60,841 nucleotides of DNA. It comes from a virus. Its lineage: Duplodnaviria > Caudoviricetes. The position numbers and the translations under genes were made by a program. The stretch is from positions 1 through 60,841 of the IMG/VR virus record IMGVR_UViG_3300035109_000005; one strand, given 5' to 3'. The notes under the pieces are model-generated. The model was not told the DNA's origin, searched no databases, and was given only the letters and a program-made list of their open reading frames with translations. Shown here piece after piece: positions 13,343 through 55,330 of this stretch (the stretch's first letter is position 1; the number at the start of each line of letters is the position of its first letter).

Positions 13343-13938
13343 GTCCAAGACGCTCCCGATTCCGCTGCAGTCGGCGCGACTCCTTGCACGGTCCCCCCGC
13401 TAACGACAGAAGCCGCGCTCGGCGCCGCCACATTCGACCCAGCGCCCTGCGTGGTGATGCGGATCTCTTGCAACCAAACATCCACCACCATTAGGCCAAG
13501 CCCATTCGTCGAGGTGCGGCGGTAATCGTAATGGTGCACGTTGACGTTGGGGTACACTACCTCGGGGGTCACAGCGGAGAACAGCGTAAGTGTCCCTGCT
13601 ACTGCAGCGACCGACGCCAAGAGCGCTTCGCGGTTGGCAATCGACCCGCCCGCAGAAAACCGCAGGCGGGCGTCGAAGGGAACCTGGACCTTGTTGTAGC
13701 TCTCGAACGCCCCCTGCTCGAGCGGATAATCGCAGATGGACCAGTCCTGGCGGTAGGTCATGTCGATGACGCTATCAGCCGTGATGACGGGCTGCCCTCC
13801 GAGATACAATCCCCACTGCTGCAAGAAGCTGCCGGGCGGGAAACTATCCCCTGTCAGCAGCGCGGTCGCGTATGACGCGGCTGCGCGCGCGACGGGTGGC
13901 ACGCCGGGAGCATTGGGGACGTTAACTAGGAACATCAT
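13339..13938 (-). CDS. Tail-tip/baseplate initiator (Dit-like) protein
   Basis: Follows tape measure gene; DYPLEQGAFESYNKV..P, VTPE..Y. Confidence 0.75.
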   Translation of the reverse strand: MMFLVNVPNAPGVPPVARAAASYATALLTGDSFPPGSFLQQWGLYLGGQPVITADSVIDMTYRQDWSICDYPLEQGAFESYNKVQVPFDARLRFSAGGSIANREALLASVAAVAGTLTLFSAVTPEVVYPNVNVHHYDYRRTSTNGLGLMVVDVWLQEIRITTQGAGSNVAAPSAASVVSGGTVQGVAPTAAESGASWT

Positions 13939-34932: not shown

Positions 34933-35069
34933 GACGCCCGCCCCTTTCTTGCTCTTGCCTCACGCGCCCGTTTGCGGGCGCGGCGGATAATTCGAGGTGG
35001 GAGGATTTGGATGACGACAATCCGTGTCGCCTTCGTGTGCTTGAAGTAAAAGCGCCGGCGCTCGATCAT
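34929..35069 (-). CDS. Small basic protein (46 aa)
   Basis: ATGA overlaps at both ends; Arg-rich. Confidence 0.4.
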   Translation of the reverse strand: MIERRRFYFKHTKATRIVVIQILPPRIIRRARKRAREARARKGRAS

Positions 35070-35983
35070 GCCGCGTCCGTCACTGCTGAGAGGGCGGCTT
35101 CAACGCGCCAGATCGATCGGCCGATCGCTTCCGTGATTTGGGGAAGAACTGCGTCGCCGTAGGCGCTGATGCATTCGCGAGCCAGCCTGGAGGGTAGCCC
35201 ATGATCCACTCGTATGTGGCCAGCAATGCCGCCGTGCCAGTCACCCCAATCGTCCGCCCATGCGAGTCCGGTTCGCCCCATTTGTTCGCGCGCGGCGTTC
35301 CGATCATCGTTCGTAGCTTCTCGCGCGCACCCGATCCGCCCTCCCATCTCAGTCCTCCGGACTGAGATTGCTTGCAGGCAGTCGGGAGAAGCTGCCTGCC
35401 GCCATGTTTCATCGGCCTGCCTCTCAACGCGGCGATCTGATCGCCGCGTCCACCCCGCTCCCCGTCCGATTTGCGCGGTGTCGGCAGCAATGAACCAGAC
35501 CCGATCGCGCTTGTGGGGCGCTCCAATATCGTCAGCACCGACCACGCACGGCCAGACGGCGTAGCCCATTCTCTCCAGCTCGCCGATGACCCAGTCCGCC
35601 CCGCGAGTTCTGAGGCCAGGGCTGTTTTCAAAAGCGCACCAACGAGGACGGCATTCGGCGACGAGCCGTAAGGCATCGCGGAAGAGGCCTGTCCTTTCCC
35701 CTTCGACGCCCTTGCCTTTTGAGTTTGCAAGACTGGCGTCCTGGCATGGCGGGCTTCCGACGATGACGTCTGGCAAGAACCCAAGGTCGGAAACAATTCG
35801 GCTTGCAGAGAGGCTTCTGACATCGTCGTACATCCGAACGTCTGGGAAATTGTGAGAAAAAACAGCACGGCGCCATGGATCAGACTCGCAAGCGGCGACC
35901 GTGCGAAAGCCAGCGCGGTGCATGCCGAGAGACCACCCGCCACAGGCGCCGCTGAAAAGGTCCAGAACGAGAGGGCGGCTCAT
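35066..35983 (-). CDS. C5 cytosine DNA methyltransferase, alpha chain (motifs I-VIII and X)
   Basis: LDLFSG, GSPPCQD, ENSPGL, HKRDRVWFIA, YGDAVLPQITEAIG. Confidence 0.9.
   Translation of the reverse strand: MSRPLVLDLFSGACGGWSLGMHRAGFRTVAACESDPWRRAVFSHNFPDVRMYDDVRSLSASRIVSDLGFLPDVIVGSPPCQDASLANSKGKGVEGERTGLFRDALRLVAECRPRWCAFENSPGLRTRGADWVIGELERMGYAVWPCVVGADDIGAPHKRDRVWFIAADTAQIGRGAGWTRRSDRRVERQADETWRQAASPDCLQAISVRRTEMGGRIGCAREATNDDRNAAREQMGRTGLAWADDWGDWHGGIAGHIRVDHGLPSRLARECISAYGDAVLPQITEAIGRSIWRVEAALSAVTDAA
35080..35676 (-). CDS. Putative beta chain of the C5 methyltransferase, overprinted in an alternate frame
   Basis: Open 198-aa frame with LLPTP/LPT/GTP repeats and motif IX-like EWIMGYPPGW that the alpha frame lacks. 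Confidence 0.7.
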   Translation of the reverse strand: MPYGSSPNAVLVGALLKTALASELAGRTGSSASWREWATPSGRAWSVLTILERPTSAIGSGSLLPTPRKSDGERGGRGDQIAALRGRPMKHGGRQLLPTACKQSQSGGLRWEGGSGAREKLRTMIGTPRANKWGEPDSHGRTIGVTGTAALLATYEWIMGYPPGWLANASAPTATQFFPKSRKRSADRSGALKPPSQQ

Positions 35984-36762
35984 ATCAATGACCCGGCTTT
36001 GGGACGCAGCGACGGCGCCCATTTGTCCTTGTCCGCCTTGATCTGCGGGTAAGCCGTTGGGTGCATTTGCCGAAAATTTGGAAGGTTAGGTCCTGCGATG
36101 TAGCCGTTCTCCGCCTTTACAAGCCAACCCGTGAAAGGATCGGTCCAACGTGTCGGGGAAAGCTGAAGCGCCTTGAAGTCAGACCGCGTTACCGGGCGGT
36201 CTTCAAGCAAGATTGCAAGCTTGATCGCCTTGATCTTCCACTCCGTAAGCGCCAGCGGCGAAGACGCGCCCGCGGTGACATCAGGGACATAATCTGGAAG
36301 CTTTAGGCGCCGATCTGGGCACCACTGGTGCCATGTTTTGCCTACATCCCACCCTCGCACCTCATCTGGAAGATCCGGAGAAAACGCCGGGCGCCAAACG
36401 CCCCGACGCCATTCTTCTTTTTGGGCGGTAGGGCTATGGCAACGGATGACAGTGATCCCCAGCGCGCAGCAAAGTGCCCCGATTTCATGCCCAGCAGCAT
36501 CAGAGGGGACAAGCACGGCGCGATAGTCGGGACCAACCACGCCCATGCTCCATCCGCGCGCGCCATCAAGAGATTGCAGGAGAACTTTAGCATTCAAAGC
36601 GAGTTTGGCTTCGATCCCGATTTGAACTTGGTCGCATTTCCTGACCAAGACTATGTCGAACCCCTCCGTCTCCGGGTAAGCGATCCAATCCCTGTCGAGC
36701 TTCGCGACCTCACCGAGAAATGCTGCGCACAGTTCTGTTTCCTTTTTGAAAATCTTGCTCAT
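35980..36762 (-). CDS. PD-(D/E)XK nuclease-like protein
   Basis: YPET..FDIVLV...IGIEAK. Confidence 0.55.
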   Translation of the reverse strand: MSKIFKKETELCAAFLGEVAKLDRDWIAYPETEGFDIVLVRKCDQVQIGIEAKLALNAKVLLQSLDGARGWSMGVVGPDYRAVLVPSDAAGHEIGALCCALGITVIRCHSPTAQKEEWRRGVWRPAFSPDLPDEVRGWDVGKTWHQWCPDRRLKLPDYVPDVTAGASSPLALTEWKIKAIKLAILLEDRPVTRSDFKALQLSPTRWTDPFTGWLVKAENGYIAGPNLPNFRQMHPTAYPQIKADKDKWAPSLRPKAGSLI

Positions 36763-38321: not shown

Positions 38322-39524
38322 TCAGGCGGCTCGTCTGTTGATGCTGTCGATGAGGATGTCGTTGAAGTCGGTATCCTTCGGGGCCATGTGCACAATCGTC
38401 TCGAAGCCGAGCCGCTGGAACCGCGCCTGCCCGGTCTTCAATTTTGCGACCGTCTCGCGCTTGTATTCGCCGTCGGGATCAAGATCGCCGTCTCCGAGGA
38501 GGATCAGCTGCTTCACACCTGCGGGGATCCACATCGCGCCGCTTTCCATGTCCGGATCCCCGTTGGGGATGGTCGCGTTCGGGCGCCCGCGTGGGGGGTG
38601 AGGGTGCGGAATTGAGCCGGTCGATAACCCGCAGAGATTTCCGAGCGAATAAGCCGCCGCGACGCCAGCGTGTGCGAGCTCGTCCCCGAAGCCGCCGATG
38701 CGGGCCATGGCGAGCCATGCCAAAGAGGTCTCTATGCCTTCCCCTACGGCGAGGAGGTCAGATGGCGGCTGCAGCATGATCAGGCCGCCGCCCATCTTGG
38801 ACATTCCCTTTTTTGCCTTGTTGCGCTTGCGGTCTCCAGGGGGCTGCAGCTTCTTCGCGCCGTGAGGGTCCAGATACGTCCTGTGGAGTCCCTGGATGCG
38901 CCCCTGCGCGTCGCGCATGGCCGCCACCATGCAGTGGAAGCGGCCGAGTTCTACGGCCTCCTGCGCGTCCGCATCGGCATAGCCGACATACGAGAGGTCG
39001 CGGATGAAGCGGAGATCAGAGGGGTCGAACGTGTGCAAGAGGATGCCGCGGCTCTCGAGATAGTCCTCGGCTTGCGTTCCTGCGATCGGGACGCCTTGCT
39101 CAAAGAGGCGCGCCGCCTTAGCGCGCGCGTTGTCTTCGGCTTTCGCCTCCTCGCGCTGGCGTTCGATCTCGGCGTCGCGCTTTTCTTCGCGGCGCTCGCG
39201 CTCGATTTCCGGGTCGCGCTCCCGAACTCTGGTTTCGCCGCGTGGGGGAGGCGTTTCGTTTATGTACTCGCAGGCCGAGACGAAGTCGCACTCGCGCACA
39301 TGCTGGACCATGGAGATCCCGTCTCCAGCAGCCCCAGACTTGCGGCAAAGAAAGACGCCCTTCTTCGGATTGATCGAGAAGCCGTCGGTCGTACAGCAGC
39401 CCAATATGCATGGGCCGGAATACTCTCCCCGCGCCGGCATGCGTATGCCGAGCGCCTCAGCCACGTTCTCGATCGGAACGCGACGCGCTTCTTCGATCCA
39501 TGCCTCAAAATCGGCGTCGCTCAT
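38322..39524 (-). CDS. DNA primase (zinc finger plus TOPRIM)
   Basis: GPC...C..DGFSIN..K.VFLCR, YLESRGI, GLHRTYL, VGEGIETSL, LLGDGD, DFND. Confidence 0.85.
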   Translation of the reverse strand: MSDADFEAWIEEARRVPIENVAEALGIRMPARGEYSGPCILGCCTTDGFSINPKKGVFLCRKSGAAGDGISMVQHVRECDFVSACEYINETPPPRGETRVRERDPEIERERREEKRDAEIERQREEAKAEDNARAKAARLFEQGVPIAGTQAEDYLESRGILLHTFDPSDLRFIRDLSYVGYADADAQEAVELGRFHCMVAAMRDAQGRIQGLHRTYLDPHGAKKLQPPGDRKRNKAKKGMSKMGGGLIMLQPPSDLLAVGEGIETSLAWLAMARIGGFGDELAHAGVAAAYSLGNLCGLSTGSIPHPHPPRGRPNATIPNGDPDMESGAMWIPAGVKQLILLGDGDLDPDGEYKRETVAKLKTGQARFQRLGFETIVHMAPKDTDFNDILIDSINRRAA

Positions 39525-41056
39525 GAGTTCGCCCTCTGCATCGTCAGCACCACCGTGTTGACGTTCGTCCCGCTCTCTCTGAATGAGCCCGGCGGAAGAT
39601 CGCGGAACGAGCCGCCATGCCGCTCCACACGCGCGCGCAACGCGACAGCCTTGCGTGTCTCACGGAACTCCGTGCCTGCCGACATAATTGCGAAGAGTTG
39701 TCCGCCGGGCTTCAGGAATTCGAGGGCGTGGGTCACATGGTCGATATCCCGCTCCATGTCGAAGGGCGGGTTCATCACCACCATGTCATAGGGCTCGAAG
39801 GAGCTGGGCTTCAGCGAAAGGAAGTCCGTGCATATGACTCGGTTGTAGATGCCTTCGGCTTCGAGGCGCGCGGCAAGGTCGGGCTGGACCTCTATGCAGT
39901 CGACCGCATTGTCGAACCGATAGGAGCGCGCATATTCCTCCCGGCGCCAAGGCTCAATGTCGGACAGCTTCGAGATGCACCGGCGGGCCAGGTTGCCCGT
40001 GCCGGCCGATGGCTCCAGCACGCGCAAGCGCGGCTGGTCGGCCGACCTCAGCACCCAGATATTCCGGAACAGCTCCTTTGCGGCGGCGTCCGGCGTGGGG
40101 AAGAAGCCGAAGCGCTTGGCCGGGGTGGTCTTGCGATTCGAGAAAACGTCTTCTTCGGTCTGCCCGCCGTCCGCGATGACCTCGCCGTAGAATTCAGCAA
40201 GCAGCTTATTGACCTTGCGAACGAGGTCGTCGCGTTTGAACCAAAGGTGCGCATTGCCATTCTTGAAGCCGCGTACCCGAAAGTAGTCGTTCTCGTTCAA
40301 AGTCTGGCGCGCATGTCCCATCCCGCGCTCGGCTTCGAGCATGTTCAGCGTGCTTTGAAAGGTCGCCTCGTGGTGCCCGTCGAGGATAGCGAAGACGCGC
40401 TCGACGTCGATCAGCGTGTCACGGACGCTCCCCCATTCCAGGCGGCCGTATTCGTTGAACATGCGAGTGACGATAATGCGCGAGCCCACCTTGAAGCCGT
40501 CGTGGCTCTTGAAGCGCCGATCGAGGGACGCAAAGGCGTTCGCAATCCCCCGGCGGAAGATCGTGTCCGCGTCCATGCGGAAGGCTTCGAGCGTCGCATA
40601 GATGTTCTCCACCGTGATTGGCGGCATCCCCTTCGCCGCCTCGTCATCGGTGATGAGCTGGCCCGACCGGTCAACGCGGTCCGGCACATAGCGCAGCTGG
40701 TTCCGGAGCTGCTCCTTCGCCTGGACGTCCATCAGGCGTTCGAGATCCGTCATCTTCACGATGTAGCCCCAGCACTGTAGATCGGTCAGCTGGCGCGCCA
40801 CGCGCAGAAACTCGTCGCGCTTCGGCAGCCTCACGGCGGCGTAAAAGCGGCTGATCTCGTCGATCCTGTCATAGGTGTAGTTGTTCCTCTCGATCGGCGC
40901 TGCGCGCCGCGCCATTTCATGGGCAGCCTGGATCGCTTCATCTGCTGCGGCGATCGCGGCATAGGCGCGCTCATAAAGCGTCAGGGCTTCGTCCCGGCTT
41001 TCGACGATCTGCTCGACCGTCGCTCGCGGCATCGGTAGATTGGCGCGCGCGTTCAT
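39521..41056 (-). CDS. DUF4942-like domain fused to an amino (N6A/N4C) DNA methyltransferase
   Basis: FKNGNAHLWF, FFPTP, VLEPSAGTG, VMNPPF, FRESGTNVNT. Confidence 0.85.
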   Translation of the reverse strand: MNARANLPMPRATVEQIVESRDEALTLYERAYAAIAAADEAIQAAHEMARRAAPIERNNYTYDRIDEISRFYAAVRLPKRDEFLRVARQLTDLQCWGYIVKMTDLERLMDVQAKEQLRNQLRYVPDRVDRSGQLITDDEAAKGMPPITVENIYATLEAFRMDADTIFRRGIANAFASLDRRFKSHDGFKVGSRIIVTRMFNEYGRLEWGSVRDTLIDVERVFAILDGHHEATFQSTLNMLEAERGMGHARQTLNENDYFRVRGFKNGNAHLWFKRDDLVRKVNKLLAEFYGEVIADGGQTEEDVFSNRKTTPAKRFGFFPTPDAAAKELFRNIWVLRSADQPRLRVLEPSAGTGNLARRCISKLSDIEPWRREEYARSYRFDNAVDCIEVQPDLAARLEAEGIYNRVICTDFLSLKPSSFEPYDMVVMNPPFDMERDIDHVTHALEFLKPGGQLFAIMSAGTEFRETRKAVALRARVERHGGSFRDLPPGSFRESGTNVNTVVLTMQRANS

Positions 41057-41400: not shown

Positions 41401-41738
41401 TTAAGGACCCCGTTTTTCTTTTTCTCGGCGTGGTAGCGAAGGATTGGGTCAATCCGCGAATAGTTGATAGCGACCGCGTCCATAAGATTAGCCGCCGCAT
41501 CAAGGGCGTGCATGCGATGTTCGTACGCCGGATGGAACCAGCGATGGTACTGGCGATCAGCCTCATAGGCGGCGAAGCGCACGGCGTCTGTCGCCGCCTC
41601 AAGTGAAACAGGCTTCCGAGGCGTTCCGCCGATCGTGACGTTACCCTTGCGCATCCAGATAACGACGTCGCTCAAAAACGCTTTCTCGACCTCGGTGAGG
41701 TTCCAATCCTTCGCGATGGCGGAGAAGCGCGTCGTCAT
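41397..41738 (-). CDS. Hypothetical protein (113 aa)
   Basis: Overlapping start/stop tiling. Confidence 0.6.
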   Translation of the reverse strand: MTTRFSAIAKDWNLTEVEKAFLSDVVIWMRKGNVTIGGTPRKPVSLEAATDAVRFAAYEADRQYHRWFHPAYEHRMHALDAAANLMDAVAINYSRIDPILRYHAEKKKNGVLK

Positions 41739-42319
41739 TCGGCCGCCGCCATCGTTGCAAGGTCATCGAACTTGCCGACTTCGTTGCCGAAGGCATCCCA
41801 TCCTGGACGAGACTGGCGGGAGAAAAGTTCAAGCCGGCGTAAGCCGGTCGTGTGGCGCTCGACCAACGCAAAGAACTCTTCCGGCTTGCGCGAATGCTCG
41901 CGCGCCACGCCGTCGAAAAGAGAAGGGAAACCGCTCACCTTTGTTGGTTTCCCCATGACGCCCAACAAGATCGGCTCGTGCATGGTGCGGGCCCAATAAC
42001 CAGTCCCCATGCGCACCTTGCCCGCCGGCGTCACCTTGCGCCACGAAAGCAGGCTCTTGTAGGCAAAGCCCCACGCCCGCATCACGTCCAAAGCATGCGG
42101 GAGCATCGCGCCTGTAGCCCAAAGGAGAAGGACACAATCCTTCTGGGCAAGTTCTCCAACCGGGAGCGCCTTGATATCTTCTGTGCGCATCAAGTCGTAA
42201 TGCCGAGAGGCGCTTTTGGTCTGGTTATGCTCGCCCCATGTTCGAAAGCGCCAAGGCGGGTCCGCACATATGACGTCGTAAGAGAGAGGACGGAGGTCGC
42301 CGAAGGGCCAGTTGCTCAT
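41735..42319 (-). CDS. MT-A70 family adenine methyltransferase
   Basis: ADPPW, LLLWAT, WGF.YK, MGTGYW.R, REHSRKP, LELFSR, FGNE. Confidence 0.9.
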   Translation of the reverse strand: MSNWPFGDLRPLSYDVICADPPWRFRTWGEHNQTKSASRHYDLMRTEDIKALPVGELAQKDCVLLLWATGAMLPHALDVMRAWGFAYKSLLSWRKVTPAGKVRMGTGYWARTMHEPILLGVMGKPTKVSGFPSLFDGVAREHSRKPEEFFALVERHTTGLRRLELFSRQSRPGWDAFGNEVGKFDDLATMAAAE

Positions 42320-42552
42320 GCAACGCGACTCGCTGCAAAAGTTGTGGCCGCTGCTTCGACCTTCTCGCGCAAATCTGCATTTGCAGCGATCAGATTGAGC
42401 GTCACGCGAGCCGCTGCGAGAGACCGCGTGAATTCGCCCATCGTCATGCCGCCGAGATCGTCCTGGGCAATCTGTTTTGTCTCGACGATCCACACAGCCA
42501 TTGCCTGATGGTCGAGAGATGGTCGAGAACGGTATTTCTCTGAGACAGGCAT
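42316..42552 (-). CDS. Hypothetical protein
   Basis: GGAGGG RBS; overlaps both neighbours. Confidence 0.55.
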   Translation of the reverse strand: MPVSEKYRSRPSLDHQAMAVWIVETKQIAQDDLGGMTMGEFTRSLAAARVTLNLIAANADLREKVEAAATTFAASRVA

Positions 42553-43106
42553 CAGTTCCCTCCAAAGAGAACGAGACCCGCTGGCTTCGCGCGGCAAATT
42601 ACGTCGCTGGCGTAAATGTGCAGCGCGACCGCATCGGCCGCGTCTGTATCCCTGGAATCCTTCGGCAGATAGCCGAGCATCTGGCAGCGCGCGAGAACGG
42701 CCTGCTTCGGGTTTTCAGGGCGCGCCTTGCCTACGACGTGCTTGCGAACGCTCTGGACGTTCGCTGACTCACAACGGATGCCATACGGCCCGCAGATCGT
42801 CTCGACCCCGCCAACGAGGCGGTGCAGGAGCGAGATGGTTTCTGGGGTGGAACGGAACGTGGGGCGCTCGCCACTGTCCTTTTTCCAATCGATCATGCCG
42901 CCGATGTTCACCGGGGCCTCGATCACAACGAGGTCAGGAAGCTCGAAGGCGAACTGATCCCGCAGCCAAATCCCGAGCTTCTTGCATGCTCGCTGCGACG
43001 GGTCGTCCGGGCGCTTCAGCCTCTCCGACCCGGCACGCGGCTTTTCGCCCGCGCGCCCGATCGCGTATCCGAGTTTCGTCGCAACATCGAGGGCCATGAT
43101 CAACAT
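42552..43106 (-). CDS. RuvC-like Holliday junction resolvase
   Basis: IMALDVATKLGYA, VVIEAP, VRKH..G, DAADA. Confidence 0.8.
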   Translation of the reverse strand: MLIMALDVATKLGYAIGRAGEKPRAGSERLKRPDDPSQRACKKLGIWLRDQFAFELPDLVVIEAPVNIGGMIDWKKDSGERPTFRSTPETISLLHRLVGGVETICGPYGIRCESANVQSVRKHVVGKARPENPKQAVLARCQMLGYLPKDSRDTDAADAVALHIYASDVICRAKPAGLVLFGGN

Positions 43107-45883: not shown

Positions 45884-45933
45884 GAGGATATTTCCAAATC
45901 GCCTACGGCTGCAATTTGTTGGATGTTTCCGGC

Positions 45934-46698
45934 ATGAGCGAACTGCGGAAAATCGTTAAAAACAGGCTTGATGAGCTTGGGAGGAACCCGTTCGACGCAG
46001 CGCGGATTGGGGGACTGAACAAGCACTTCATCGACGACCTGCTGATCGGGAAAAAGCACACGGTCAAGGAGACTAGTCTAGGGAAGCTCGCTGCCGCACT
46101 TGACTGGACAAGAGACGAGCTGATGCGAGCTGGCGAAGATTTCTCGTCGGAAATCTACTACGACGCAGACGTCGAAACCGCGAGATCAGCCGAGGATGCG
46201 GCAGCGCGTAGGAAGTTCTACGACAGGGAAGGCGTTCGGATAAACGCAAACGAACGGGCGATACTTGAGATCGACGTTGCTGCTGGCCTGGGCGGCGGAC
46301 AAATCCCGTATCAAACTTTTGGCGCAGGATCCGAGGTCGCCGACGCCTATAAGCGCGAGCAGTGGGTTCTTCCGGAGTCGTTTATATCGTCTAAGTTTAA
46401 ATCGTCTCCGAAACAAATTGTTGCTGCATCAACGCGAGGTGACAGCATGTCACCAACTATCTCCAACGGAGATATAGTTTTCATAGATACGGCGCACAGG
46501 AAGATATCTCCTTCTGGGATCTACGCCATCCGTAACGTTTATGGGGAAATAACCGTCAAACGTCTTGACGCATTCCGACGCGGGGATGACTTGTTCGTTA
46601 AGATTTCTTCCGACAACCAAAGCGAATCTCCCCACGAAGAGCGGCTAAGCGAGGTTCACGTGGTTGGGCGCGTCTGCGGGATACTGAAAACGGTTTGA
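45934..46698 (+). CDS. cI: CI-like repressor with S24 peptidase domain
   Basis: N-terminal HTH; AAGLG cleavage region, GDSMSPTI..GD, VKRL, VVGRV. Confidence 0.9.
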   Translation: MSELRKIVKNRLDELGRNPFDAARIGGLNKHFIDDLLIGKKHTVKETSLGKLAAALDWTRDELMRAGEDFSSEIYYDADVETARSAEDAAARRKFYDREGVRINANERAILEIDVAAGLGGGQIPYQTFGAGSEVADAYKREQWVLPESFISSKFKSSPKQIVAASTRGDSMSPTISNGDIVFIDTAHRKISPSGIYAIRNVYGEITVKRLDAFRRGDDLFVKISSDNQSESPHEERLSEVHVVGRVCGILKTV

Positions 46699-49798: not shown

Positions 49799-50874
49799 GC
49801 ATGGTCGAAACGACGTCGCGCGACTTGGTCCCCGATATTCCAAAGGCGCAAGCGCTTACGGTCTTCACGTCGGAAGGCGCTATCGATCCGATCCTCAAGC
49901 GCATCCGCGAAGAGATCGACGCATTTACGCCGAACGTGACGACCGACAAAGGGCGTAAAGCCATCGCGTCGATCGCCTACAAGGTCTCGCAGTCGAAGAG
50001 CTACCTTGAGAGTGTCGGGAAGAAGCTTGCCGACGAGCAAAAGGAAATCCCAAGAAAGATTGACGCGACGCGCAAGCAGATCCGCGACACGCTCGACAAG
50101 TGGCGCGATGAAGTGCGCGCGCCCCTCACTGAGTGGGAGATGGCTGAGGAGCGCCGCATTGGCCGCCACAAGGCAAAACTTTCCTGGCTAGACAGCATCG
50201 CCCCTGGCAGAGATGCCGCGTCTTCCGAGCTGCGCCAGCTCCTCGCCGACGTAGAGGCTGTCGATCTCTCGAAAGAGGCGTGTGAAGAATTCCTAGCGGA
50301 TTATGCGACGTCCAAGGAGGTCGCCAGAGTACGGCTGACTGACACCATCGCAGTGGCTGAGAAGCGTGAAGCTGAAGCGGCCGAACTCGCCCGCCTTCGC
50401 AAAGAGGCGGCCGAACGGGAGGCCAAGGAACGCGAAGAGCGCATAGCCCGCGAGGCCGCTGAGCGCGCCAGAGCCGAGGCCGAGCGCAAAGCGCAGGAGG
50501 AAATCGAGCGCCGGGAAGCTGCCGCGCGAGCCGAGCGCGAAGAAGCCGAGCGCCGCGAGCGTGAAGCCGCCATGAAGGCTGAGCAAGAGCGCCTGGACGC
50601 CGAGCGTCGAGAATTGGAGCTGCGCAGGCAAGCAGAGGAATCCGAGCGCAGAGCTGCGGAAGCTGAGGCTCGCGCCAAGCGCGAGCTCGAGGAGCGTCAG
50701 CAGCGCGAGAAGGAAGAGGCTGAGCGGCGTGAGCGCAATCGGGCTCATCGCGCGAAGGTCAACGCTGCGGCCGCCGCCACACTCGTGGCGGGTGGCCTTC
50801 AAGAGGATGCGGCCAAACTCGCGGTGACCCTTATCGCCAAAGGCGCTGTCCCCTCCGTGACAATCTCCTACTGA
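49795..50874 (+). CDS. Phage coiled-coil protein (E/R/A-rich)
   Basis: KGRKAIASIAYKV, DEVRAPLTEWE, HRAKVN, IAKG.VP.V.I.Y. Confidence 0.85.
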   Translation: MSMVETTSRDLVPDIPKAQALTVFTSEGAIDPILKRIREEIDAFTPNVTTDKGRKAIASIAYKVSQSKSYLESVGKKLADEQKEIPRKIDATRKQIRDTLDKWRDEVRAPLTEWEMAEERRIGRHKAKLSWLDSIAPGRDAASSELRQLLADVEAVDLSKEACEEFLADYATSKEVARVRLTDTIAVAEKREAEAAELARLRKEAAEREAKEREERIAREAAERARAEAERKAQEEIERREAAARAEREEAERREREAAMKAEQERLDAERRELELRRQAEESERRAAEAEARAKRELEERQQREKEEAERRERNRAHRAKVNAAAAATLVAGGLQEDAAKLAVTLIAKGAVPSVTISY

Positions 50875-50885
50875 GGATTCCGCCA

Positions 50886-51182
50886 ATGCCACAGCCAACC
50901 GAACGCGCCGGAGTCCTCCAAGCGTACGCTGAAATGCTCGCAGACAGCGGCGTCGACCTCGACGATTACACTGATTGCGCGCTCGAGCTTGTCTCGCGCG
51001 GCGTGCGCGGTGCCGACATAGGCGACGACCTTACTGAGATCATCTCCATCGCAAAGCGCATTCGCACCCCCCACAACGCAATCACGGACATTGCGGCGAC
51101 TGTCGCCCTCTTCGCCGTTGGCGCGGCCCTCGTCTTCCTGGGCGGGATTCTCGACTCGCTTGTCGCGAGCCCGATCGTCTGA
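50886..51182 (+). CDS. Hypothetical protein with C-terminal TM helix
   Basis: GAGGA RBS; hydrophobic tail. Confidence 0.6.
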   Translation: MPQPTERAGVLQAYAEMLADSGVDLDDYTDCALELVSRGVRGADIGDDLTEIISIAKRIRTPHNAITDIAATVALFAVGAALVFLGGILDSLVASPIV

Positions 51183-51208
51183 AGCCTTTCAATCTAAGGA
51201 GCGTGTGC

Positions 51209-51499
51209 ATGAATTTACATTCCGAACTCGCCGCATCGGCTGGGAACCCAGAGGCGGCTCGCGCATGGCGCGAGGCGATCAAATGGCGACGGCGCTTCAA
51301 AAGCTCGGAAACAGCGCGTTTTGCGTCCGTCATCGCACACGGAGTCTCCAACGAGATGAGGAGCTTTCTAGCCCTCGAACTCGTTGACTACATGCGCCGC
51401 GAGAAGCGGCGCCGCCAGCGCGCGGCGATCGCCGACTTTGTGCTCGGCTCTCTCGCTCTGACGTACGTCTGGGCGGTCATCCTCCTCAACCTGCAATAG
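51209..51499 (+). CDS. Hypothetical protein with C-terminal TM helix
   Basis: AAGGAG RBS; hydrophobic tail. Confidence 0.6.
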   Translation: MNLHSELAASAGNPEAARAWREAIKWRRRFKSSETARFASVIAHGVSNEMRSFLALELVDYMRREKRRRQRAAIADFVLGSLALTYVWAVILLNLQ

Positions 51500-51503
51500 G
51501 AGA

Positions 51504-51866
51504 TTGGCGCACATGTCTGCGGCAGAGACGCTCATGGAGCGCAAGAGACGCGAGGCGGACGACAGGGCGACGGCTAACTTCCTAATGCCCGGGGTCCCTT
51601 CGCAATTGGATGCGGTCGGGAATGCGCTGCGGACGGCCGTAGAGATGCTCGAAGACGCTCAGACGCGTCTTCACAGCAAGATCGCGGGCGACCCAATGGA
51701 GCGGCTCTGCATCGCGGCCAATCTGCTCTCTATGCCTTTCCCGTTCATCACCAGCCTGCTCGACGAGTTCGGCCCCGAAGGGGTCGAGCCGCTCCTCGAT
51801 GAGATCGACAGGCATTCGGCACATATCCGAGCCGTCTTGCAGAACATTCCCCGGAGCGCGCCATGA
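51504..51866 (+). CDS. Hypothetical protein
   Basis: AGGAG RBS; tiling. Confidence 0.6.
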   Translation: MAHMSAAETLMERKRREADDRATANFLMPGVPSQLDAVGNALRTAVEMLEDAQTRLHSKIAGDPMERLCIAANLLSMPFPFITSLLDEFGPEGVEPLLDEIDRHSAHIRAVLQNIPRSAP

Positions 51867-52144
51867 GCCTCGTCAAAGACGGCGAGCGGTCTCGGTTCGT
51901 CCTGCACAGCGAGAAGTCGTTGGTTCCGCTGCGCTGGTGGCTGAAGGATCGCAAGTTCAATGGACATTTTCCTTACTTGGTCGACAGCCGCGGCAATCGA
52001 ATGGTCGGGATCAACTGGCACTTCCGCGATGATCGAGGCCACGAGTGCGTGAAGCCGTGTGGGCTGATCTTAATTCGCGACGAAGCGCTCGCGGATCAAG
52101 TCATCAAGATGGTCGAAGAGCACATGCAGCCGCGCCATGGATAG
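51863..52144 (+). CDS. Hypothetical protein
   Basis: GGAG RBS; ATGA overlap. Confidence 0.6.
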   Translation: MSLVKDGERSRFVLHSEKSLVPLRWWLKDRKFNGHFPYLVDSRGNRMVGINWHFRDDRGHECVKPCGLILIRDEALADQVIKMVEEHMQPRHG

Positions 52145-52155
52145 CCAAACCTACT

Positions 52156-52215
52156 CTCCTCGCAGCGCTCCGCGCCGCTGCGCTCCGCAACGCATCGCCC
52201 CGCATCGCAACGCCA
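52156..52215 (+). repeat. Pentamer array 1: (CGC-NN) x12, candidate guide RNA
   Basis: CTCCT CGCAG CGCTC CGCGC CGCTG CGCTC CGCAA CGCAT CGCCC CGCAT CGCAA CGCCA. Confidence 0.9.
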
Positions 52216-52234
52216 ACCACCAAAAGGAACGCCA

Positions 52235-52804
52235 ATGCCCAGGATCGCAATCGTAAAACTGGAAAGCCTCGCCCCCTACTCGCAGTCGCGCAAGCACGAC
52301 ACGCCGAAGAAGGACAAGGAAACCCCCGATGCTTATGAAGCGCGCACATGGCGCGAGAAGTGCTCGGCGAATGACGCAGGGGAGATTGTGATCCCCGCCA
52401 TGGCGTTCAAGCAGGCGCTGGACGCCGTTGCAAAGCGCCTTGGGATGCAGATACCAGGCAAGGGGAAGGCGACCTACACGAAGCACTTCAAGGGCGGTGT
52501 CATTTGCGAGGCCGATGTTCCGATCGGCTATCGGAAGGATGATGTTCCATCCATCACGATTTCAGCGAACAGCGACGGCGTTCGAGGGTCCGGGAAGCGT
52601 GTCTCGCGCACGTTCCCGCAAGTTCCAAAATGGTCGGGGGAAGCACGGTTCGTCATCCTCGATGACACCGTGACCAACGACATTTTCGAAAAGCACCTGA
52701 CTGAGGCCGGCCGCTTTATCGGAGTCGGGAGGTTTCGTCCTGAGAATGGCGGGTTAAACGGCCGATTCAAGATCGCGGCTTCGCCTCGCTACGAGGAAAT
52801 CTAG
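52235..52804 (+). CDS. Stand-alone RAMP/Cas7-like protein (189 aa)
   Basis: AAAGGA RBS; N-terminal strand IVKLESLAPY, IPAMAFKQAL (compare RAMP IPGSSLKG.L), C-terminal Gly loop GVGRFRPENGGLNGRF. Confidence 0.7.
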   Translation: MPRIAIVKLESLAPYSQSRKHDTPKKDKETPDAYEARTWREKCSANDAGEIVIPAMAFKQALDAVAKRLGMQIPGKGKATYTKHFKGGVICEADVPIGYRKDDVPSITISANSDGVRGSGKRVSRTFPQVPKWSGEARFVILDDTVTNDIFEKHLTEAGRFIGVGRFRPENGGLNGRFKIAASPRYEEI

Positions 52805-52811
52805 AAGGCTT

Positions 52812-52891
52812 CCCCGCGCGACACGGCGCGCCGCTCCGCGTCTCTCCGCTCCGCAACGCGTCTCTCCGCTCCGCAACGCTACGCATCACAT
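52812..52891 (+). repeat. Pentamer array 2: (CNC-NN) x16, candidate guide RNA
   Basis: CCCCG CGCGA CACGG CGCGC CGCTC CGCGT CTCTC CGCTC CGCAA CGCGT CTCTC CGCTC CGCAA CGCTA CGCAT CACAT. Confidence 0.9.
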
Positions 52892-52942
52892 AGCAAAACC
52901 TTTGGATGATTTTCGATGAACGATACGAGCTAACCGCAACAT

Positions 52943-53012
52943 CGCGCCTCTGCGCAACGCATCGCCACGCCCCTCTGTGCTTCGCTACGCCCCGCCTCTC
53001 TTGGCAACGCAA
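52943..53012 (+). repeat. Pentamer array 3: (CGC-NN) x14, candidate guide RNA
   Basis: CGCGC CTCTG CGCAA CGCAT CGCCA CGCCC CTCTG TGCTT CGCTA CGCCC CGCCT CTCTT GGCAA CGCAA. Confidence 0.9.
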
Positions 53013-53037
53013 CGACCACAATCTTGGATGAACACAA

Positions 53038-53526
53038 ATGGCCCAACCAATTTTTGAAATGTCAGCCGATGCTAGGCTCCTTCGCCAGCGCCTCTCTAAG
53101 GTCGCCGTCGGGCAAGAAATTTCTTACGAGGAGCTTTCGCGTGAGATCGGGCGCAAGGTCGCAGGGTCTTGCACAGCTCTTCAATCCGCGCGCCGGTCGC
53201 TTCTGAATTCCAGCCAAATAATCTTTGAGCCGGTGCGCGGCGTCGGGCTGAAGCGCTTGAGCGACTCCGAGATCGTCGACGCCAGCGAGCGCGACATCTC
53301 AAAGGTCCGGCGCGCGGCAAGGCGCGGCGCGAAGAAGCTCCTATCCATCGCAGACTATTCGGCGCTCCCAAGCGACAAGCAGCTCCAGCACACAACGCGG
53401 TTGAGCGTCATGACGATGATCGCGCACGCCGCCTCTGACAAGGGTATCGAGAAGGTTGAGAAGGCTGCGGCAGGACGCGCGCAAGAGTTGCCAATAGCAG
53501 AGACGCTGAAGGCGTTCTCTACTTAA
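53038..53526 (+). CDS. Accessory protein of the repeat locus, predicted winged-helix N-terminus
   Basis: GQEISYEELSREIG...ARR.L....FEPVRGVGLKRL; lies between arrays 3 and 4. Confidence 0.7.
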   Translation: MAQPIFEMSADARLLRQRLSKVAVGQEISYEELSREIGRKVAGSCTALQSARRSLLNSSQIIFEPVRGVGLKRLSDSEIVDASERDISKVRRAARRGAKKLLSIADYSALPSDKQLQHTTRLSVMTMIAHAASDKGIEKVEKAAAGRAQELPIAETLKAFST

Positions 53527-53541
53527 ACCGGAGATCACCGA

Positions 53542-53606
53542 TGCGTCGCGTCGCAACGCATCGCCCCGCGCCGCAGCGCTACACTGCGCTTCGCAACGCA
53601 ACGCAC
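53542..53606 (+). repeat. Pentamer array 4: (CGC-NN) x13, candidate guide RNA
   Basis: TGCGT CGCGT CGCAA CGCAT CGCCC CGCGC CGCAG CGCTA CACTG CGCTT CGCAA CGCAA CGCAC. Confidence 0.9.
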
Positions 53607-53620
53607 TATCAGGAGGTAAC

Positions 53621-54571
53621 ATGGCTACCACAGAGTCAGAAACCCAAGCTCCGCAAGAGCGCGTCGAGCATGCGCCTGGCATCTATTTCGGGCTTGACGA
53701 GTCGCGCTATCATGCCGACTCGGCCCTCGGCTCGACGTCCATGAAGAAGCTGGCGGATAGCCCTCCGGATTACTGGTTCGACTCGCCGCACAATCCTATG
53801 CGCGAGGAAGACGACGGCGACACGCCCGCACGCCGGTTCGGCCGCGCCGTTCACAAGTTCGTTCTTGAGGGACGTGCTGCTTTCGAGTCGGCCTATGCGC
53901 CGACAGACTTCAGCGGCGCCACCCGGGAAGGGAAAGCCGAACGCGCGCGCATCGCTGAGGCTGGAAAGACGCCGATCAAGCGCGAGGATTGGAACCGCAT
54001 CCAGCTTGCCGGGACAATCATCCGTTCGAACCCGTCGATCTCTACGGCCTTCGACGGCGGCATGCCGGAGGTCTCCGTCTTCTGGGAGCGCGACGGCATA
54101 AGGCGCAAGGCACGCTTCGATTATCTGAAGCCGCGCGCGATCATCGACCTCAAGAGCAACGCGAACCAGATGCAGACCTCATTCGTCGAGTCCTGCCGGC
54201 GCGCGATTGCTTCCTACCGATACGATATCCAGCCGGCGCACTATGGCGAGGCGCGTGAGCTCGTTCCGCAGTTTGCCGCTGACGGCGCCGTCTATGGCGA
54301 TCATGACCCGACGTGGCTCAAGCGCGTCGCGGACGCCAAGGAGTGGGCCTTCGTCTGGGTTTTCTATCAAAGCCAAGGGGCGCCGCTTACGTGGGCGACC
54401 AAGGTGTCGCCCGGGAATGGTCTTCTTGATCTTGCTAGATCCACGCTCGCCAAAGCTGAGGAAAACTACCGGAAATTTCTCGATCGCTTCGGGCTCGAAC
54501 AGCCGTGGGTGCTCTCCGACCCGCTCGAAGAAATCGACGTCAACGACATTCCAACTTGGGCGTTCCGCTAA
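53621..54571 (+). CDS. RecE/exonuclease VIII-like PD-(D/E)XK nuclease (DUF3799-like)
   Basis: PGIY.GL...YHAD.ALGST, FGRAVH..VLE, EVS.FW, KARFD, DLK, Y.IQ.AHY. Confidence 0.85.
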   Translation: MATTESETQAPQERVEHAPGIYFGLDESRYHADSALGSTSMKKLADSPPDYWFDSPHNPMREEDDGDTPARRFGRAVHKFVLEGRAAFESAYAPTDFSGATREGKAERARIAEAGKTPIKREDWNRIQLAGTIIRSNPSISTAFDGGMPEVSVFWERDGIRRKARFDYLKPRAIIDLKSNANQMQTSFVESCRRAIASYRYDIQPAHYGEARELVPQFAADGAVYGDHDPTWLKRVADAKEWAFVWVFYQSQGAPLTWATKVSPGNGLLDLARSTLAKAEENYRKFLDRFGLEQPWVLSDPLEEIDVNDIPTWAFR

Positions 54572-54589: not shown

Positions 54590-55330
54590 ATGGCATTTTC
54601 TCTCCTACGGGTCTGCGACATCGAGACTACCGGCATGACGGCGCCAGACGCCGCCCCGTGCGAGGTTGGCTGGGTCGACCTCAAACTCGCAGACCCGTCA
54701 ACCGGCCTCTACGTGATCGACGAAGACGGGCGGCAGAAGACCCTCTGCAACCCCTCACGCCCTATCCCGCCGGAAGTGAGCGCGATTCACCACATCACTG
54801 ACGAGGATGTTGCCGGCGCGCCATTCTGGCCCCAGGCGCTCGCGGACTGCGCTGCGAAGGATGATCCGCTCTTCTCTCCTGACGTCTTCGTGGCGCACAA
54901 CGCGAAATTCGAGCGCCAATGGTTCACCGAGGAAGTGACCGGCGGGAAGCCATGGATTGATACCTACAAGTGCGCGCTCCGGCTTTGGCCGGAAGCCCCC
55001 GCCCACAATAACCAGGCGCTCCGATACTGGCTCAGGCCCCAAGGCTTAAACCGCGAGATTGCGAGCGGGGCTCATCGTGCAATGCCTGACGCATACGTCA
55101 CAGCGTTCCTGCTGCGCGAGATGCTCGACAAGGCCTCTGTCGAAGACCTGATCCGCTGCTCCGAGCGCCCGGCGCTTCTGCCGAAAGTGCAGTTCGGGAA
55201 GCACTTCGGGAAGAAGTGGTCGGAGGTCGACACCGGCTATCTCGATTGGTGCCTTACCCAAAAAGACATGGACGAGGACGTGAAGTTCACCGTCCGAACC
55301 GAACTCAAGCGCCGCGGACTCAGCGGCTGA
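54590..55330 (+). CDS. DnaQ/exonuclease X-like 3'-5' exonuclease
   Basis: DIETTG, VAHNAKFE, IDTYK, HRAMPDAY, FGKH.GK.W..V..GYL.W. Confidence 0.9.
   Translation: MAFSLLRVCDIETTGMTAPDAAPCEVGWVDLKLADPSTGLYVIDEDGRQKTLCNPSRPIPPEVSAIHHITDEDVAGAPFWPQALADCAAKDDPLFSPDVFVAHNAKFERQWFTEEVTGGKPWIDTYKCALRLWPEAPAHNNQALRYWLRPQGLNREIASGAHRAMPDAYVTAFLLREMLDKASVEDLIRCSERPALLPKVQFGKHFGKKWSEVDTGYLDWCLTQKDMDEDVKFTVRTELKRRGLSG

What the first reader, a model, noticed from the sequence alone, without database searches (positions are those of the whole stretch)
52156..53606. Candidate phage RNA-guided system: lone RAMP/Cas7-like protein, a partner gene and four CGC-NN pentamer arrays
Seen in sequence: the layout is array1 - 189-aa gene - array2 - array3 - 162-aa gene - array4. 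The four intergenic tracts (60-80 nt) keep a strict 5-nt register. Of 55 units, 42 start with CGC and all 55 have C at position 3, while positions 4-5 vary freely. I saw no such tracts elsewhere in the window. Established knowledge: RAMP/Cas7 proteins have an N-terminal strand-Pro, an IPxxxxKxxL helix and a C-terminal Gly-rich loop, and they polymerise on RNA with a fixed nucleotide period. The 189-aa protein shows all three motifs (KLESLAPY, IPAMAFKQAL, GVGRFRPENGGLNGRF). Inference: each array is a small RNA coated by one subunit per pentamer, with CGC as the handle and NN as the specificity code, probably used against competing phages or elements. No cas1/2/3/5/6 or repeat-spacer array is present. 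From memory and unverified, phage RAMP systems with GGY/NN pentamer RNAs (VIPR) have been reported. The CGC constant here matches GGY on neither strand, so this would be a distinct variant.
Basis: partly seen in the sequence, partly recalled or inferred. Interest (0 to 1): 0.95.

Follow-up and report, generated by a model that had tools for sequence, protein, structure and literature searches.

The report
Phage VIPR system with CGC-type repeats
This soil phage carries a VIPR system, a recently described phage relative of CRISPR whose small protein coats RNAs made of five-letter repeats, and here the fixed letters of each repeat are CGC rather than the usual GGY.

Summary
Four same-strand pentamer arrays (11-16 units, mostly CGC+NN) flank a 189-aa and a 162-aa gene at 52151-53606, and nothing like them occurs elsewhere in the 60.8-kb phage contig.

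The 189-aa protein has a Cas7/Csm3-type RAMP fold. It is homologous over its full length to the experimentally studied Vipr of phage phiSUSP1 (hhalign 98.2%, E 3e-14).

In 99 of 112 relatives' loci the gene is flanked by pentamer arrays, and 317 of 325 arrays are co-oriented with it. Cores are CGC, CTC, CAC or canonical GGC. The NN positions are unrelated between close relatives.

So this is a VIPR system: Vipr, a winged-helix-like accessory protein and four vrRNAs. VIPR was published in 2026 preprints, which already mention non-canonical cores, though CGC is not named in the text I could read.

Three local peculiarities stand out:
- The arrays fill intergenic gaps of an operon.
- They lack structured tails.
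- They end in (CGCAA)n-CG.

No target was found, and there are no expression data. Verdict: a real new member of a known kind, of moderate interest.

The parts
52151..52215 (+). vrRNA array 1: 11 CGC+NN units from 52161, preceded by two CTx units. It starts 7 nt after the stop of the upstream 93-aa ORF (52144) and ends 19 nt before the vipr ATG.
   Evidence: Flagged by the periodicity scan.
52235..52804 (+). vipr: a 189-aa RAMP protein with an RRM core, a thumb at about 106-128 and a G-loop GVGRFRPENGGLNGRF at 163-178.
   Evidence: AF2 pLDDT 87.1. Foldseek top hits are type VII Cas7, Csm3 and Cmr4, E down to 6e-8. VIA Z 11.4 and 11.2. hhalign to phiSUSP1 Vipr 98.2%, E 3.3e-14. 1946 homologues.
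52817..52896 (+). vrRNA array 2: 15-16 units, starting 12 nt after the vipr stop. It contains a perfect 20-nt (four-unit) duplication at 52837-52879.
52943..53017 (+). vrRNA array 3: 14-15 units, ending about 20-25 nt before the vap ATG.
53038..53526 (+). vap: a 162-aa accessory protein with an N-terminal winged-helix-like domain (residues about 5-75) and a C-terminal helical hairpin or bundle.
   Evidence: AF2 pLDDT 90.6. Weak winged-helix matches, best VIA Z 6.3-7.2. 43 homologues. A homologue lies next to vipr on the same strand in 20 of 33 genome loci.
53542..53606 (+). vrRNA array 4: 13 units, starting 15 nt after the vap stop and ending 14 nt before the ATG of the exonuclease VIII-like gene (53621).

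Best explanation
This is a VIPR (Viral Interference Programmable Repeat) system carried by a temperate, contractile-tailed soil phage. It consists of a Vipr RAMP protein, a winged-helix-like accessory protein (Vap) and four vrRNA arrays with a non-canonical constant core CGC (more loosely C-N-C) in place of GGY.

The mechanism below is inferred by homology to the SUSP1 system and is not shown here.

1. The arrays are transcribed with the early + strand operon.
2. Vipr protomers polymerise on them, one per pentamer. Each protomer buries the constant triplet (G-loop, thumb and RRM helix 1) and presents the two variable bases.
3. The 11-16 dinucleotides together read a gapped NNx-periodic site of about 33-48 bp in double-stranded DNA of a competing phage, satellite or prophage.
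4. The bound filament blocks transcription, and Vap assists at the DNA.

Specific to this clade, from my data:
- The arrays occupy the short gaps between genes and have no promoter, terminator or structured tail of their own. The guides must therefore be cut or trimmed out of a polycistronic RNA.
- They end in a conserved (CGCAA)n-CG motif that probably serves as the 3' handle.
For: **Shown here**
- The arrays are real and unique in the contig.
- The fold is RAMP. Foldseek gives 146 PDB hits at E<=1e-3, and every chain listed (ranks 1-50) is a CRISPR effector-complex entry, led by type VII Cas7 and Csm3. VIA gives Z 11.4 to Cmr4 (6s6b_I) and 11.2 to Csm3 (6ae2_B).
- There is full-length profile homology to phiSUSP1 Vipr: 98.2%, E 3.3e-14, 168 columns. 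The SUSP1 locus was located in KT454805.2 with GGTNN arrays on the gene strand.
- The gene-array association is conserved. 99 of 112 loci have at least one array within 1.5 kb, giving 325 arrays against 0 in shuffled loci. 317 of 325 arrays are co-oriented with vipr.
- The same protein family carries canonical GGC+NN arrays in 12 loci.
- The core is conserved (0.81) but NN is unrelated (0.38) between relatives whose Vipr is 69-78% identical.
- Vap synteny holds in 20 of 33 genome loci.
- The context is a phage: terminase, portal, sheath, tape measure, baseplate and a CI-like repressor.
- There is no CRISPR array.
- The arrays have 11-16 units, within the 9-16 published for vrRNAs.

**Taken from the papers**
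- One protomer per repeat and the 1-nt skip rule, with DNA binding, repression and phage defence shown for SUSP1 and P. fulva systems.
Against: - There is no expression evidence. The only run holding this DNA is one soil DNA metagenome.
- No target was found under the 1-nt skip rule in the contig itself, in IMG/VR or metagenome contigs by exact 9-12-unit patterns, or in 401 and 101 genomes allowing up to 3 mismatches. Pooling 211 guides from relatives against 643 kb showed no excess for skip 1 over shuffles.
- The core differs from GGY. SUSP1's G-contacting residues D177 and R138 align to R166 and F127 here, so recognition of the triplet cannot be identical.
- No structured 3' tail is predicted; fold z-scores are +0.5 to +1.7.
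- No promoters or + strand terminators are found around the arrays.
- Vap shows no detectable sequence homology to SUSP1 Vap1 (hhalign 2.9%).
Confidence: 0.85

Rival explanations
1. The arrays act in cis. They are 5'-UTR or intergenic RNA elements that Vipr coats to control translation, stability or processing of the operon's own mRNAs, rather than trans-acting guides.
For: In the window, three of the four arrays end 14-25 nt before a start codon. Across relatives, 139 of 298 arrays end within 30 nt of a + strand ATG and 144 start within 30 nt of a stop. They have no promoters or terminators of their own. No trans target was found.
Against: A cis site needs no variable code, yet NN is unrelated between close relatives (0.38 identity, against 0.81 for the core) and differs among the four arrays of one phage. 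In the homologous SUSP1 system the NN bases were shown to direct DNA binding. A cis role could also coexist with a guide role.
Confidence: 0.07
2. It is a VIPR relative that reads RNA, or uses a different gap rule, instead of double-stranded DNA with a 1-nt skip.
For: The closest solved folds are RNA-targeting backbone subunits: type VII Cas7, Csm3 and Cmr4. Residues that grip the triplet in SUSP1 are replaced. The 1-nt skip searches found nothing.
Against: Full-length homology to a DNA-binding Vipr. Relatives carry canonical GGC arrays and the same Vap family, for example L009. Skips of 0, 2 and 3 did no better than skip 1 in my scans. My searches had low power, using exact sub-patterns or small databases.
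Confidence: 0.05
3. The pentamer tracts are DNA-level protein-binding repeats, such as operators or iterons for the winged-helix protein, and the RAMP protein is unrelated to them.
For: The 162-aa protein has a winged-helix-like domain. The 5-bp periodicity is half a helical turn.
Against: 317 of 325 arrays are on the vipr coding strand; a double-stranded operator has no reason for such strand bias. The arrays track the RAMP gene (99 of 112 loci) more widely than the Vap gene (20 of 33). The same design is proven to be RNA in SUSP1.
Confidence: 0.03

Closest known systems
Type II VIPR of Escherichia phage phiSUSP1 (Vipr + Vap1 + four vrRNAs). I read bioRxiv 10.64898/2026.04.26.720920 (Results and methods sections 18, 20) and 10.64898/2026.04.26.720927 (sections 5, 6).
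   Same: - A homologous RAMP protein of about 190 aa (hhalign 98.2%).
- A two-gene locus without cas genes or a CRISPR array.
- Four arrays of 5-nt units (three fixed bases plus two variable) on the gene strand, upstream and downstream of the genes.
- 11-16 units, against 9-16 published.
- Phage-borne.
- The G-loop motif GVGxxRP, with the Arg that pockets the position-3 pyrimidine retained (R179 aligns to R168).
   Different: - The core is CGC, not GGY.
- SUSP1 D177 and R138 (the guanine contacts) align to R166 and F127, and W178 aligns to F167.
- The SUSP1 sequence shows roughly 450-530-nt intergenic regions, a TTGACA/TATACT-like pair upstream of the first array by my eye, and a tail that the paper describes as a pseudoknot.
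- Here the arrays fill 75-230-nt gaps between ORFs, with no promoter or terminator calls and unstructured tails.
- Vap is not detectably homologous to Vap1.
- The host is probably a GC-rich alphaproteobacterium; the nearest relative in a named genome is a Beijerinckiaceae MAG.
Non-canonical VIPR arrays reported by periodic-entropy mining. I read passages and section 4.22 of bioRxiv 10.64898/2026.10.21.760802. The alternative NNNGG, YNNNG and NNNNG vrRNAs come from the first VIPR preprint.
   Same: Pentamer arrays with a fixed trinucleotide other than GGY lie next to a Vipr-like fold. CAC/NN and GAC/NN, named there, also occur in this protein family (8 and 2 of 112 loci). CGC+NN fits 'YNNNG'.
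   Different: The string CGC does not occur in the held text of either paper. Whether it appears in their figures (S17, S10) or supplements I could not see. The operon-embedded layout, the (CGCAA)n-CG end and the residue-core covariation come from my calls, not from those texts.
Class 1 CRISPR backbone subunits (Cas7 family: Csm3, Cmr4, type VII Cas7)
   Same: RRM core, thumb and glycine-rich loop. These are the best structural matches: Foldseek E 6e-8, VIA Z 9-11. The principle is one subunit per fixed RNA period with flipped bases.
   Different: The period is 5 nt, not 6. The guide is non-contiguous. There are no cas genes or repeat-spacer array, no second RRM and no sequence similarity (PDB phmmer found nothing relevant). 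It is phage-borne.

Membership tests
VIPR system | A Vipr protein: a minimal single-RRM RAMP with G-loop and thumb, related to described Viprs | tested here: met
   AF2 pLDDT 87. The fold matches are dominated by Cas7, Csm3 and Cmr4. hhalign of a 62-sequence family profile to phiSUSP1 Vipr gives 98.2%, E 3.3e-14 over 168 columns.
VIPR system | vrRNA genes: tandem 5-nt units of a fixed trinucleotide plus a hypervariable dinucleotide, 9-16 units, beside vipr | tested here: met
   Four arrays of 11-16 units. The pattern gives 15 matches against 0.41 expected. Core identity is 0.81 against 0.38 for NN across relatives. 99 of 112 related loci carry arrays.
VIPR system | The fixed trinucleotide is GGY (canonical consensus) | tested here: not met
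   The core is CGC in 42/58 units, CTC in 6 and CAC in 3. The papers allow 'a related consensus' and list YNNNG and CAC/NN variants, so this bars the canonical subtype, not the family.
VIPR system | A minimal locus with a vap accessory gene and no cas genes or CRISPR array, typically on a phage or provirus | tested here: met
   The 162-aa gene is syntenic in 20/33 loci. TRF finds no CRISPR-like array. PADLOC gives no hit. Phage structural and lysogeny genes are present. Only 26 ORFs of the window were family-scanned, so a remote cas gene is not formally excluded.
VIPR system | The arrays are expressed as small RNAs that co-purify with Vipr | not testable with these tools
   No RNA run holds this DNA.
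VIPR system | The NN code matches natural targets under the 1-nt skip rule | tested here: inconclusive
   No credible target was found. The six exact sub-pattern hits did not extend beyond the searched units (18/26 and 20-21/30 overall; no extension by eye). The searches had low power.
VIPR type II (SUSP1-like) | A vrRNA with a conserved structured 3' tail (pseudoknot) | tested here: not met
   The tails fold no better than shuffles, z +0.5 to +1.7. Instead there is a conserved linear end: the last NN is AA in 135/298 arrays, the penultimate is AA in 169/298, and 'CG' follows in 108/298.
VIPR type II (SUSP1-like) | A Vap1-family accessory protein | tested here: inconclusive
   hhalign of the Vap profile to SUSP1 Vap1 gives probability 2.9%. 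The fold is only weakly winged-helix-like.
CRISPR-Cas class 1 effector | A repeat-spacer array with partner cas genes (Cas5, Cas6, large or small subunit, Cas1/2) | tested here: not met
   There is no repeat-spacer array in 60.8 kb. The neighbours are phage recombination genes.

The most novel reading that the evidence does not exclude
Within one Vipr family the constant 'handle' of the guide has been re-keyed many times. The core label (CGC, CTC, CAC, GGC, GAC) needs at least 12 changes on a tree of 87 proteins.

One G-loop residue tracks the middle base of the core:
- Arg166 with G in 69 of 70 proteins.
- Gln in 5 of 7 CAC loci.
- Thr in 3 of 9 CTC loci.
- Phe in the single GAC locus.

The bold reading is that phages switch handles to make their VIPR orthogonal, so that rivals' solo vrRNAs cannot hijack it and they cannot be loaded with foreign guides. 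On this reading a simple residue-to-base code sets the handle. A further point is that guides in this clade are matured out of polycistronic mRNA, where they sit as spacers directly before start codons.
Probability: 0.25. Interest if true: 0.7.

Novelty: new member of a known kind. Interest (0 to 1): 0.45.

Why it matters
VIPR is a months-old class of RNA-guided DNA binders proposed as the ancestor of CRISPR effector backbones. This locus adds a well-supported member from a GC-rich soil phage.

It also opens a large family in which the guide's constant triplet varies naturally. The profile finds 1946 close homologues and 1574 clusters at 50% identity.

That variation, together with the candidate specificity residues (R166, F127, F167), gives a direct way to test three things:
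- How Vipr recognises its handle.
- Whether orthogonal VIPR pairs can be engineered.
- How guides are matured without their own promoters or structured tails.

Tried and rejected
**Target hunting with the published 1-nt skip rule**
- Self-scan of the contig at skips 0-3: nothing above shuffled guides; only the arrays themselves match, at skip 3.
- Array 2's full pattern with up to 3 mismatches: 0 hits in 3 genomes and 0 in 401 genomes of the order of the nearest host-like MAG.
- The 12-unit pattern of array 3: 0 hits in 101 genomes of that family.
- Exact 9-unit patterns in IMG/VR: array 1 gave 1 hit, array 3 gave 0, array 4 gave 0 and array 2 gave 4. None extended beyond the searched units: 18/26 and 20-21/30 matched overall. 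Two of the five lie in contigs of 35-36% GC and one in 53% GC. I judge all of them chance.
- Metagenome contigs: array 3 with 12 units gave 0 hits; array 4 with 10 units gave 1 hit in an AT-rich contig with no extension. Chance.
- 211 unique guides from relatives against 643 kb of related loci plus the window: skip 1 gave 15 guides at >=0.8, against 12 for shuffled guides. One of the two top hits was a low-complexity GC guide.

**Other blanks**
- Expression: no RNA holder is listed and there is one DNA soil run. I did not lay the reads.
- Family libraries: Pfam, NCBIfam and PADLOC give nothing for either protein. PHROGs gives only unknown-function families, phrog_4652 and a weak phrog_5926.
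- Rfam: nothing relevant, and no hammerhead ribozyme between the arrays.
- PDB by sequence: nothing relevant.
- tblastn against GenBank phages: one weak hit, phage DSL-LC04, 29% identity, E 7e-4.

**Weaker analyses**
- The first narrow profile (28 close sequences) reached SUSP1 Vipr only over the C-terminal 58 columns, at 82.8%. The wider profile settled it.
- Residues distinguishing G-first from C-first cores: the best columns (A111, K20) are confounded by phylogeny and have exceptions. I do not claim them.
Full report
**What is in the sequence**

Between 52145 and 53620 the + strand reads array 1, a 189-aa ORF (52235-52804), array 2, array 3, a 162-aa ORF (53038-53526) and array 4. In one fixed 5-nt register the arrays hold 58 units by my boundaries:
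- CGC in 42 units, CTC in 6, CAC in 3 and others in 7.
- C at position 1 in 53/58, G at position 2 in 47/58 and C at position 3 in 56/58.
- Fifteen different dinucleotides at positions 4-5.

Four consecutive CGCNN units occur 15 times, always on the + strand and always inside these arrays, against 0.41 expected; 0 of 100 shuffles reach 15. A core-agnostic periodicity scan of the whole 60,841-base window flags only these four regions.

**The contig**

The 'genome' held for this window is the window itself, a virus record.

PHROGs hits identify a tailed phage:
- large terminase (29272-30642)
- portal (27176-28816)
- prohead protease (23356-25452)
- tail sheath (16782-18725)
- tape measure (13938-15707)
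- baseplate wedge (10279-11721)
- a CI-like repressor (45916-46698)
- primase, helicase, three DNA methyltransferases and HNH endonucleases

The locus lies in a long + strand block. It is followed directly by an exonuclease VIII-like PD-(D/E)XK gene (53621-54571) and a DnaQ-like exonuclease (54590-55330). The only sequencing run that holds the stretch is one soil DNA metagenome.

**The 189-aa protein**

Pfam, NCBIfam and PADLOC do not know it. PHROGs places it in the unknown-function family phrog_4652.

It has 1946 homologues at E<=0.001 among 2121 candidates, nearly all about 188 aa and unnamed. A profile of 28 of them finds 1574 clusters at 50% identity at E<=0.001.

The AlphaFold model (pLDDT 87.1, pTM 0.82) matches CRISPR RAMP backbone subunits and little else.
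- Foldseek against the PDB gives 146 hits at E<=0.001, led by type VII Cas7 (8z4j_J, 6e-8), Csm3 and Cmr4.
- An independent all-against-representatives alignment gives Z 11.4 (Cmr4, 6s6b_I; 158 residues aligned, rmsd 3.5) and Z 11.2 (Csm3, 6ae2_B).

**Link to VIPR**

A 2026 preprint describes VIPR systems (bioRxiv 10.64898/2026.04.26.720920; I read the Results and methods sections 18 and 20). According to it:
- The system consists of a minimal RAMP (Vipr), an accessory gene (vap) and vrRNAs of 9-16 YNNGG repeats.
- The NN bases read double-stranded DNA with one skipped base per unit.
- The systems are mostly phage-borne and fall into seven types.
- Alternative repeats NNNGG, YNNNG and NNNNG exist.

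A companion structural preprint (10.64898/2026.04.26.720927; sections 5 and 6) shows one protomer per repeat. G1 is read by H17 and D177, G2 by R138 and W178, and the pyrimidine by a pocket that includes R179.

I located the SUSP1 locus in KT454805.2. A 195-aa gene and a 146-aa gene are flanked by GGTNN arrays on the coding strand. A narrow profile of my family reached that Vipr only over its C-terminus (82.8%). A broader 62-sequence profile aligns it end to end at 98.2%, E 3.3e-14, over 168 columns. Homology to an experimentally characterised Vipr is therefore established at the profile level.

In that alignment SUSP1 GVGDWRP corresponds to GVGRFRP here:
- D177 aligns to R166.
- W178 aligns to F167.
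- R179 aligns to R168.
- The thumb residue R138 aligns to F127.

The retained Arg fits the invariant pyrimidine at position 3. The replaced guanine contacts fit a changed core. This reading of the alignment is inference.

**Relatives**

I fetched 33 genome loci and 80 of 240 viral contigs that encode a relative. One locus (L033) had only a 24-residue match and was dropped.

- Of the remaining 112 loci, 99 have at least one pentamer array within 1.5 kb of the gene. That gives 325 arrays, against none in 578 kb of shuffled loci.
- The dominant core per locus is CGC in 66, GGC in 12, CTC in 11, CAC in 8, GAC in 2 and none in 13.
- 317 of 325 arrays read as X-N-C+NN on the vipr coding strand. The other 8 are ambiguous registers.

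So the canonical GGY core and the CGC core occur within one protein family, and the strand bias argues for an RNA product.

On a maximum-likelihood tree of 87 distinct proteins the core label needs at least 12 changes. The minimum possible is 4 and the shuffled mean is 25. The window sits in a well-supported all-CGC clade of 10 rows with a Beijerinckiaceae MAG and viral contigs.

I compared the array just upstream of vipr in the 11 of 22 close relatives (Vipr at least 66% identical) that have one; their Viprs are 69-78% identical to the window's. Core identity is 0.81 but NN identity is only 0.38, or 0.34 without the last three units. This is the conserved-handle, variable-code pattern expected of guides.

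**Clade-specific anatomy**

In the window:
- Array 1 begins 7 nt after the upstream ORF's stop and ends 19 nt before the vipr ATG.
- Array 2 begins 12 nt after the vipr stop.
- Array 3 ends about 20-25 nt before the vap ATG.
- Array 4 begins 15 nt after the vap stop and ends 14 nt before the next gene's ATG.

No sigma-70-like promoter and no + strand terminator is called in 50800-54000. Rfam finds no ribozyme. The four 3' flanks fold no better than shuffles, z +0.5 to +1.7.

Across relatives, among 298 arrays of at least 8 units (median 15):
- 139 end within 30 nt of a + strand ATG.
- 144 start within 30 nt of a + strand stop.
- The last unit's NN is AA in 135 and the penultimate is AA in 169.
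- The next two bases are CG in 108.

This gives a conserved linear end, ...CGCAA CGCAA CG. It differs from the SUSP1 layout, which has long intergenic regions and the pseudoknotted tail that the paper describes. It implies maturation of the guides from a polycistronic RNA, which is inferred.

**The 162-aa protein**

It has 43 homologues. A homologue lies beside vipr on the same strand in 20 of 33 genome loci, including a GGC-type locus.

The model (pLDDT 90.6) shows a helix-strand-helix-helix-hairpin N-terminal domain and a helical C-terminal half. Structural matches are weak:
- Foldseek finds nothing at E<=0.001. Its best whole-chain hits are GntR-type regulators at 0.03, and OmpR-type DNA-binding domains match over about 75 columns.
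- The best VIA score is Z 7.2. Winged-helix domains of PurR, CodY and ScpB score Z 6.3-6.9, which the tool rates as middling.

It is not detectably homologous to SUSP1 Vap1 (2.9%). Calling it a winged-helix-like Vap is a reasonable but soft assignment.

**Covariation**

Among 87 distinct Viprs with arrays, the G-loop residue at window position 166 varies with the middle base of the core:
- Arg in 69 of 70 proteins whose core has G in the middle.
- Gln in 5 of 7 CAC loci.
- Thr in 3 of 9 CTC loci.
- Phe in the one GAC locus.

Exceptions exist. L096 has Arg with a pure CTC core, and several mixed CTC/CGC loci have Arg. The Gln and Thr cases come from few lineages, so this is suggestive, not proven. 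Columns separating G-first from C-first cores are confounded by phylogeny and I make no claim from them.

**Targets**

None was found; the details are under Tried and rejected. The searches were exact sub-patterns in large collections, or allowed up to 3 mismatches in about 500 genomes. A blank therefore says little.

**Novelty**

VIPR itself is in print. A later preprint (10.64898/2026.10.21.760802; passages and section 4.22) reports 21 clusters (6,318 sequences) with non-canonical cores such as GAC/NN, CAC/NN, WGT/NN and TGH/NN beside Vipr-like folds. A third preprint (10.64898/2026.10.15.759431; outline and abstract only) shows satellites hijacking Vipr with solo vrRNAs.

The string 'CGC' does not occur in the held text of the first or the later preprint. 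I could not see their figures or supplements, which may well show this core.

I therefore file the locus as a new member of a known kind, with three features that may be new: the CGC/CNC core family, its operon-embedded tail-less arrays, and frequent core switching with a candidate reader residue.

Noticed in passing
window 52837-52879: There is a perfect 20-nt tandem duplication of four pentamer units (CGCGT CTCTC CGCTC CGCAA) inside array 2. It suggests arrays grow by unit-block duplication. A guide with this duplication would read a 12-nt-periodic target.
   Followed up: partly
window 52906-53031: A 41-aa ORF starts in the spacer between arrays 2 and 3 and runs through array 3. It is probably spurious, a by-product of the repeat.
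   Followed up: no
window 23356-25452 (-): The prohead protease ORF carries an N-terminal NUDIX/MutT-like segment (phrog_1198, residues 44-168), an unusual fusion.
   Followed up: no
window 35066-36022, 39521-41056, 41735-42565 (-): Three DNA methyltransferase-like genes sit in one 60-kb phage, which points to heavy anti-restriction investment.
   Followed up: no
L045, L046, L048 (IMG/VR contigs): Close relatives carry 6-11 arrays in my listing, spread before many consecutive genes. Some stand in tandem, separated by a conserved spacer of roughly 20 nt that is U-rich in the RNA. This is a much larger guide load than the four arrays here.
   Followed up: partly
L035 10114-10139 (-): The only IMG/VR match to nine units of array 1 lies inside a small ORF that looks HTH/winged-helix-like by eye (not searched), with the skipped bases on codon third positions. 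It does not extend (18 of 26 overall), and about one such hit is expected by chance on my rough estimate.
   Followed up: yes
L015, L018, L021 and 10 viral loci: 13 of 112 relatives show no array at my threshold. Some sit at contig ends. Others may have degenerate or different-period guides.
   Followed up: no
window 53038 vs 53059: The source gene call for the 162-aa protein is a 155-aa form starting at the second Met. Homologues conserve the longer N-terminus (M..P.FEMSADARLL), which favours the 53038 start.
   Followed up: partly
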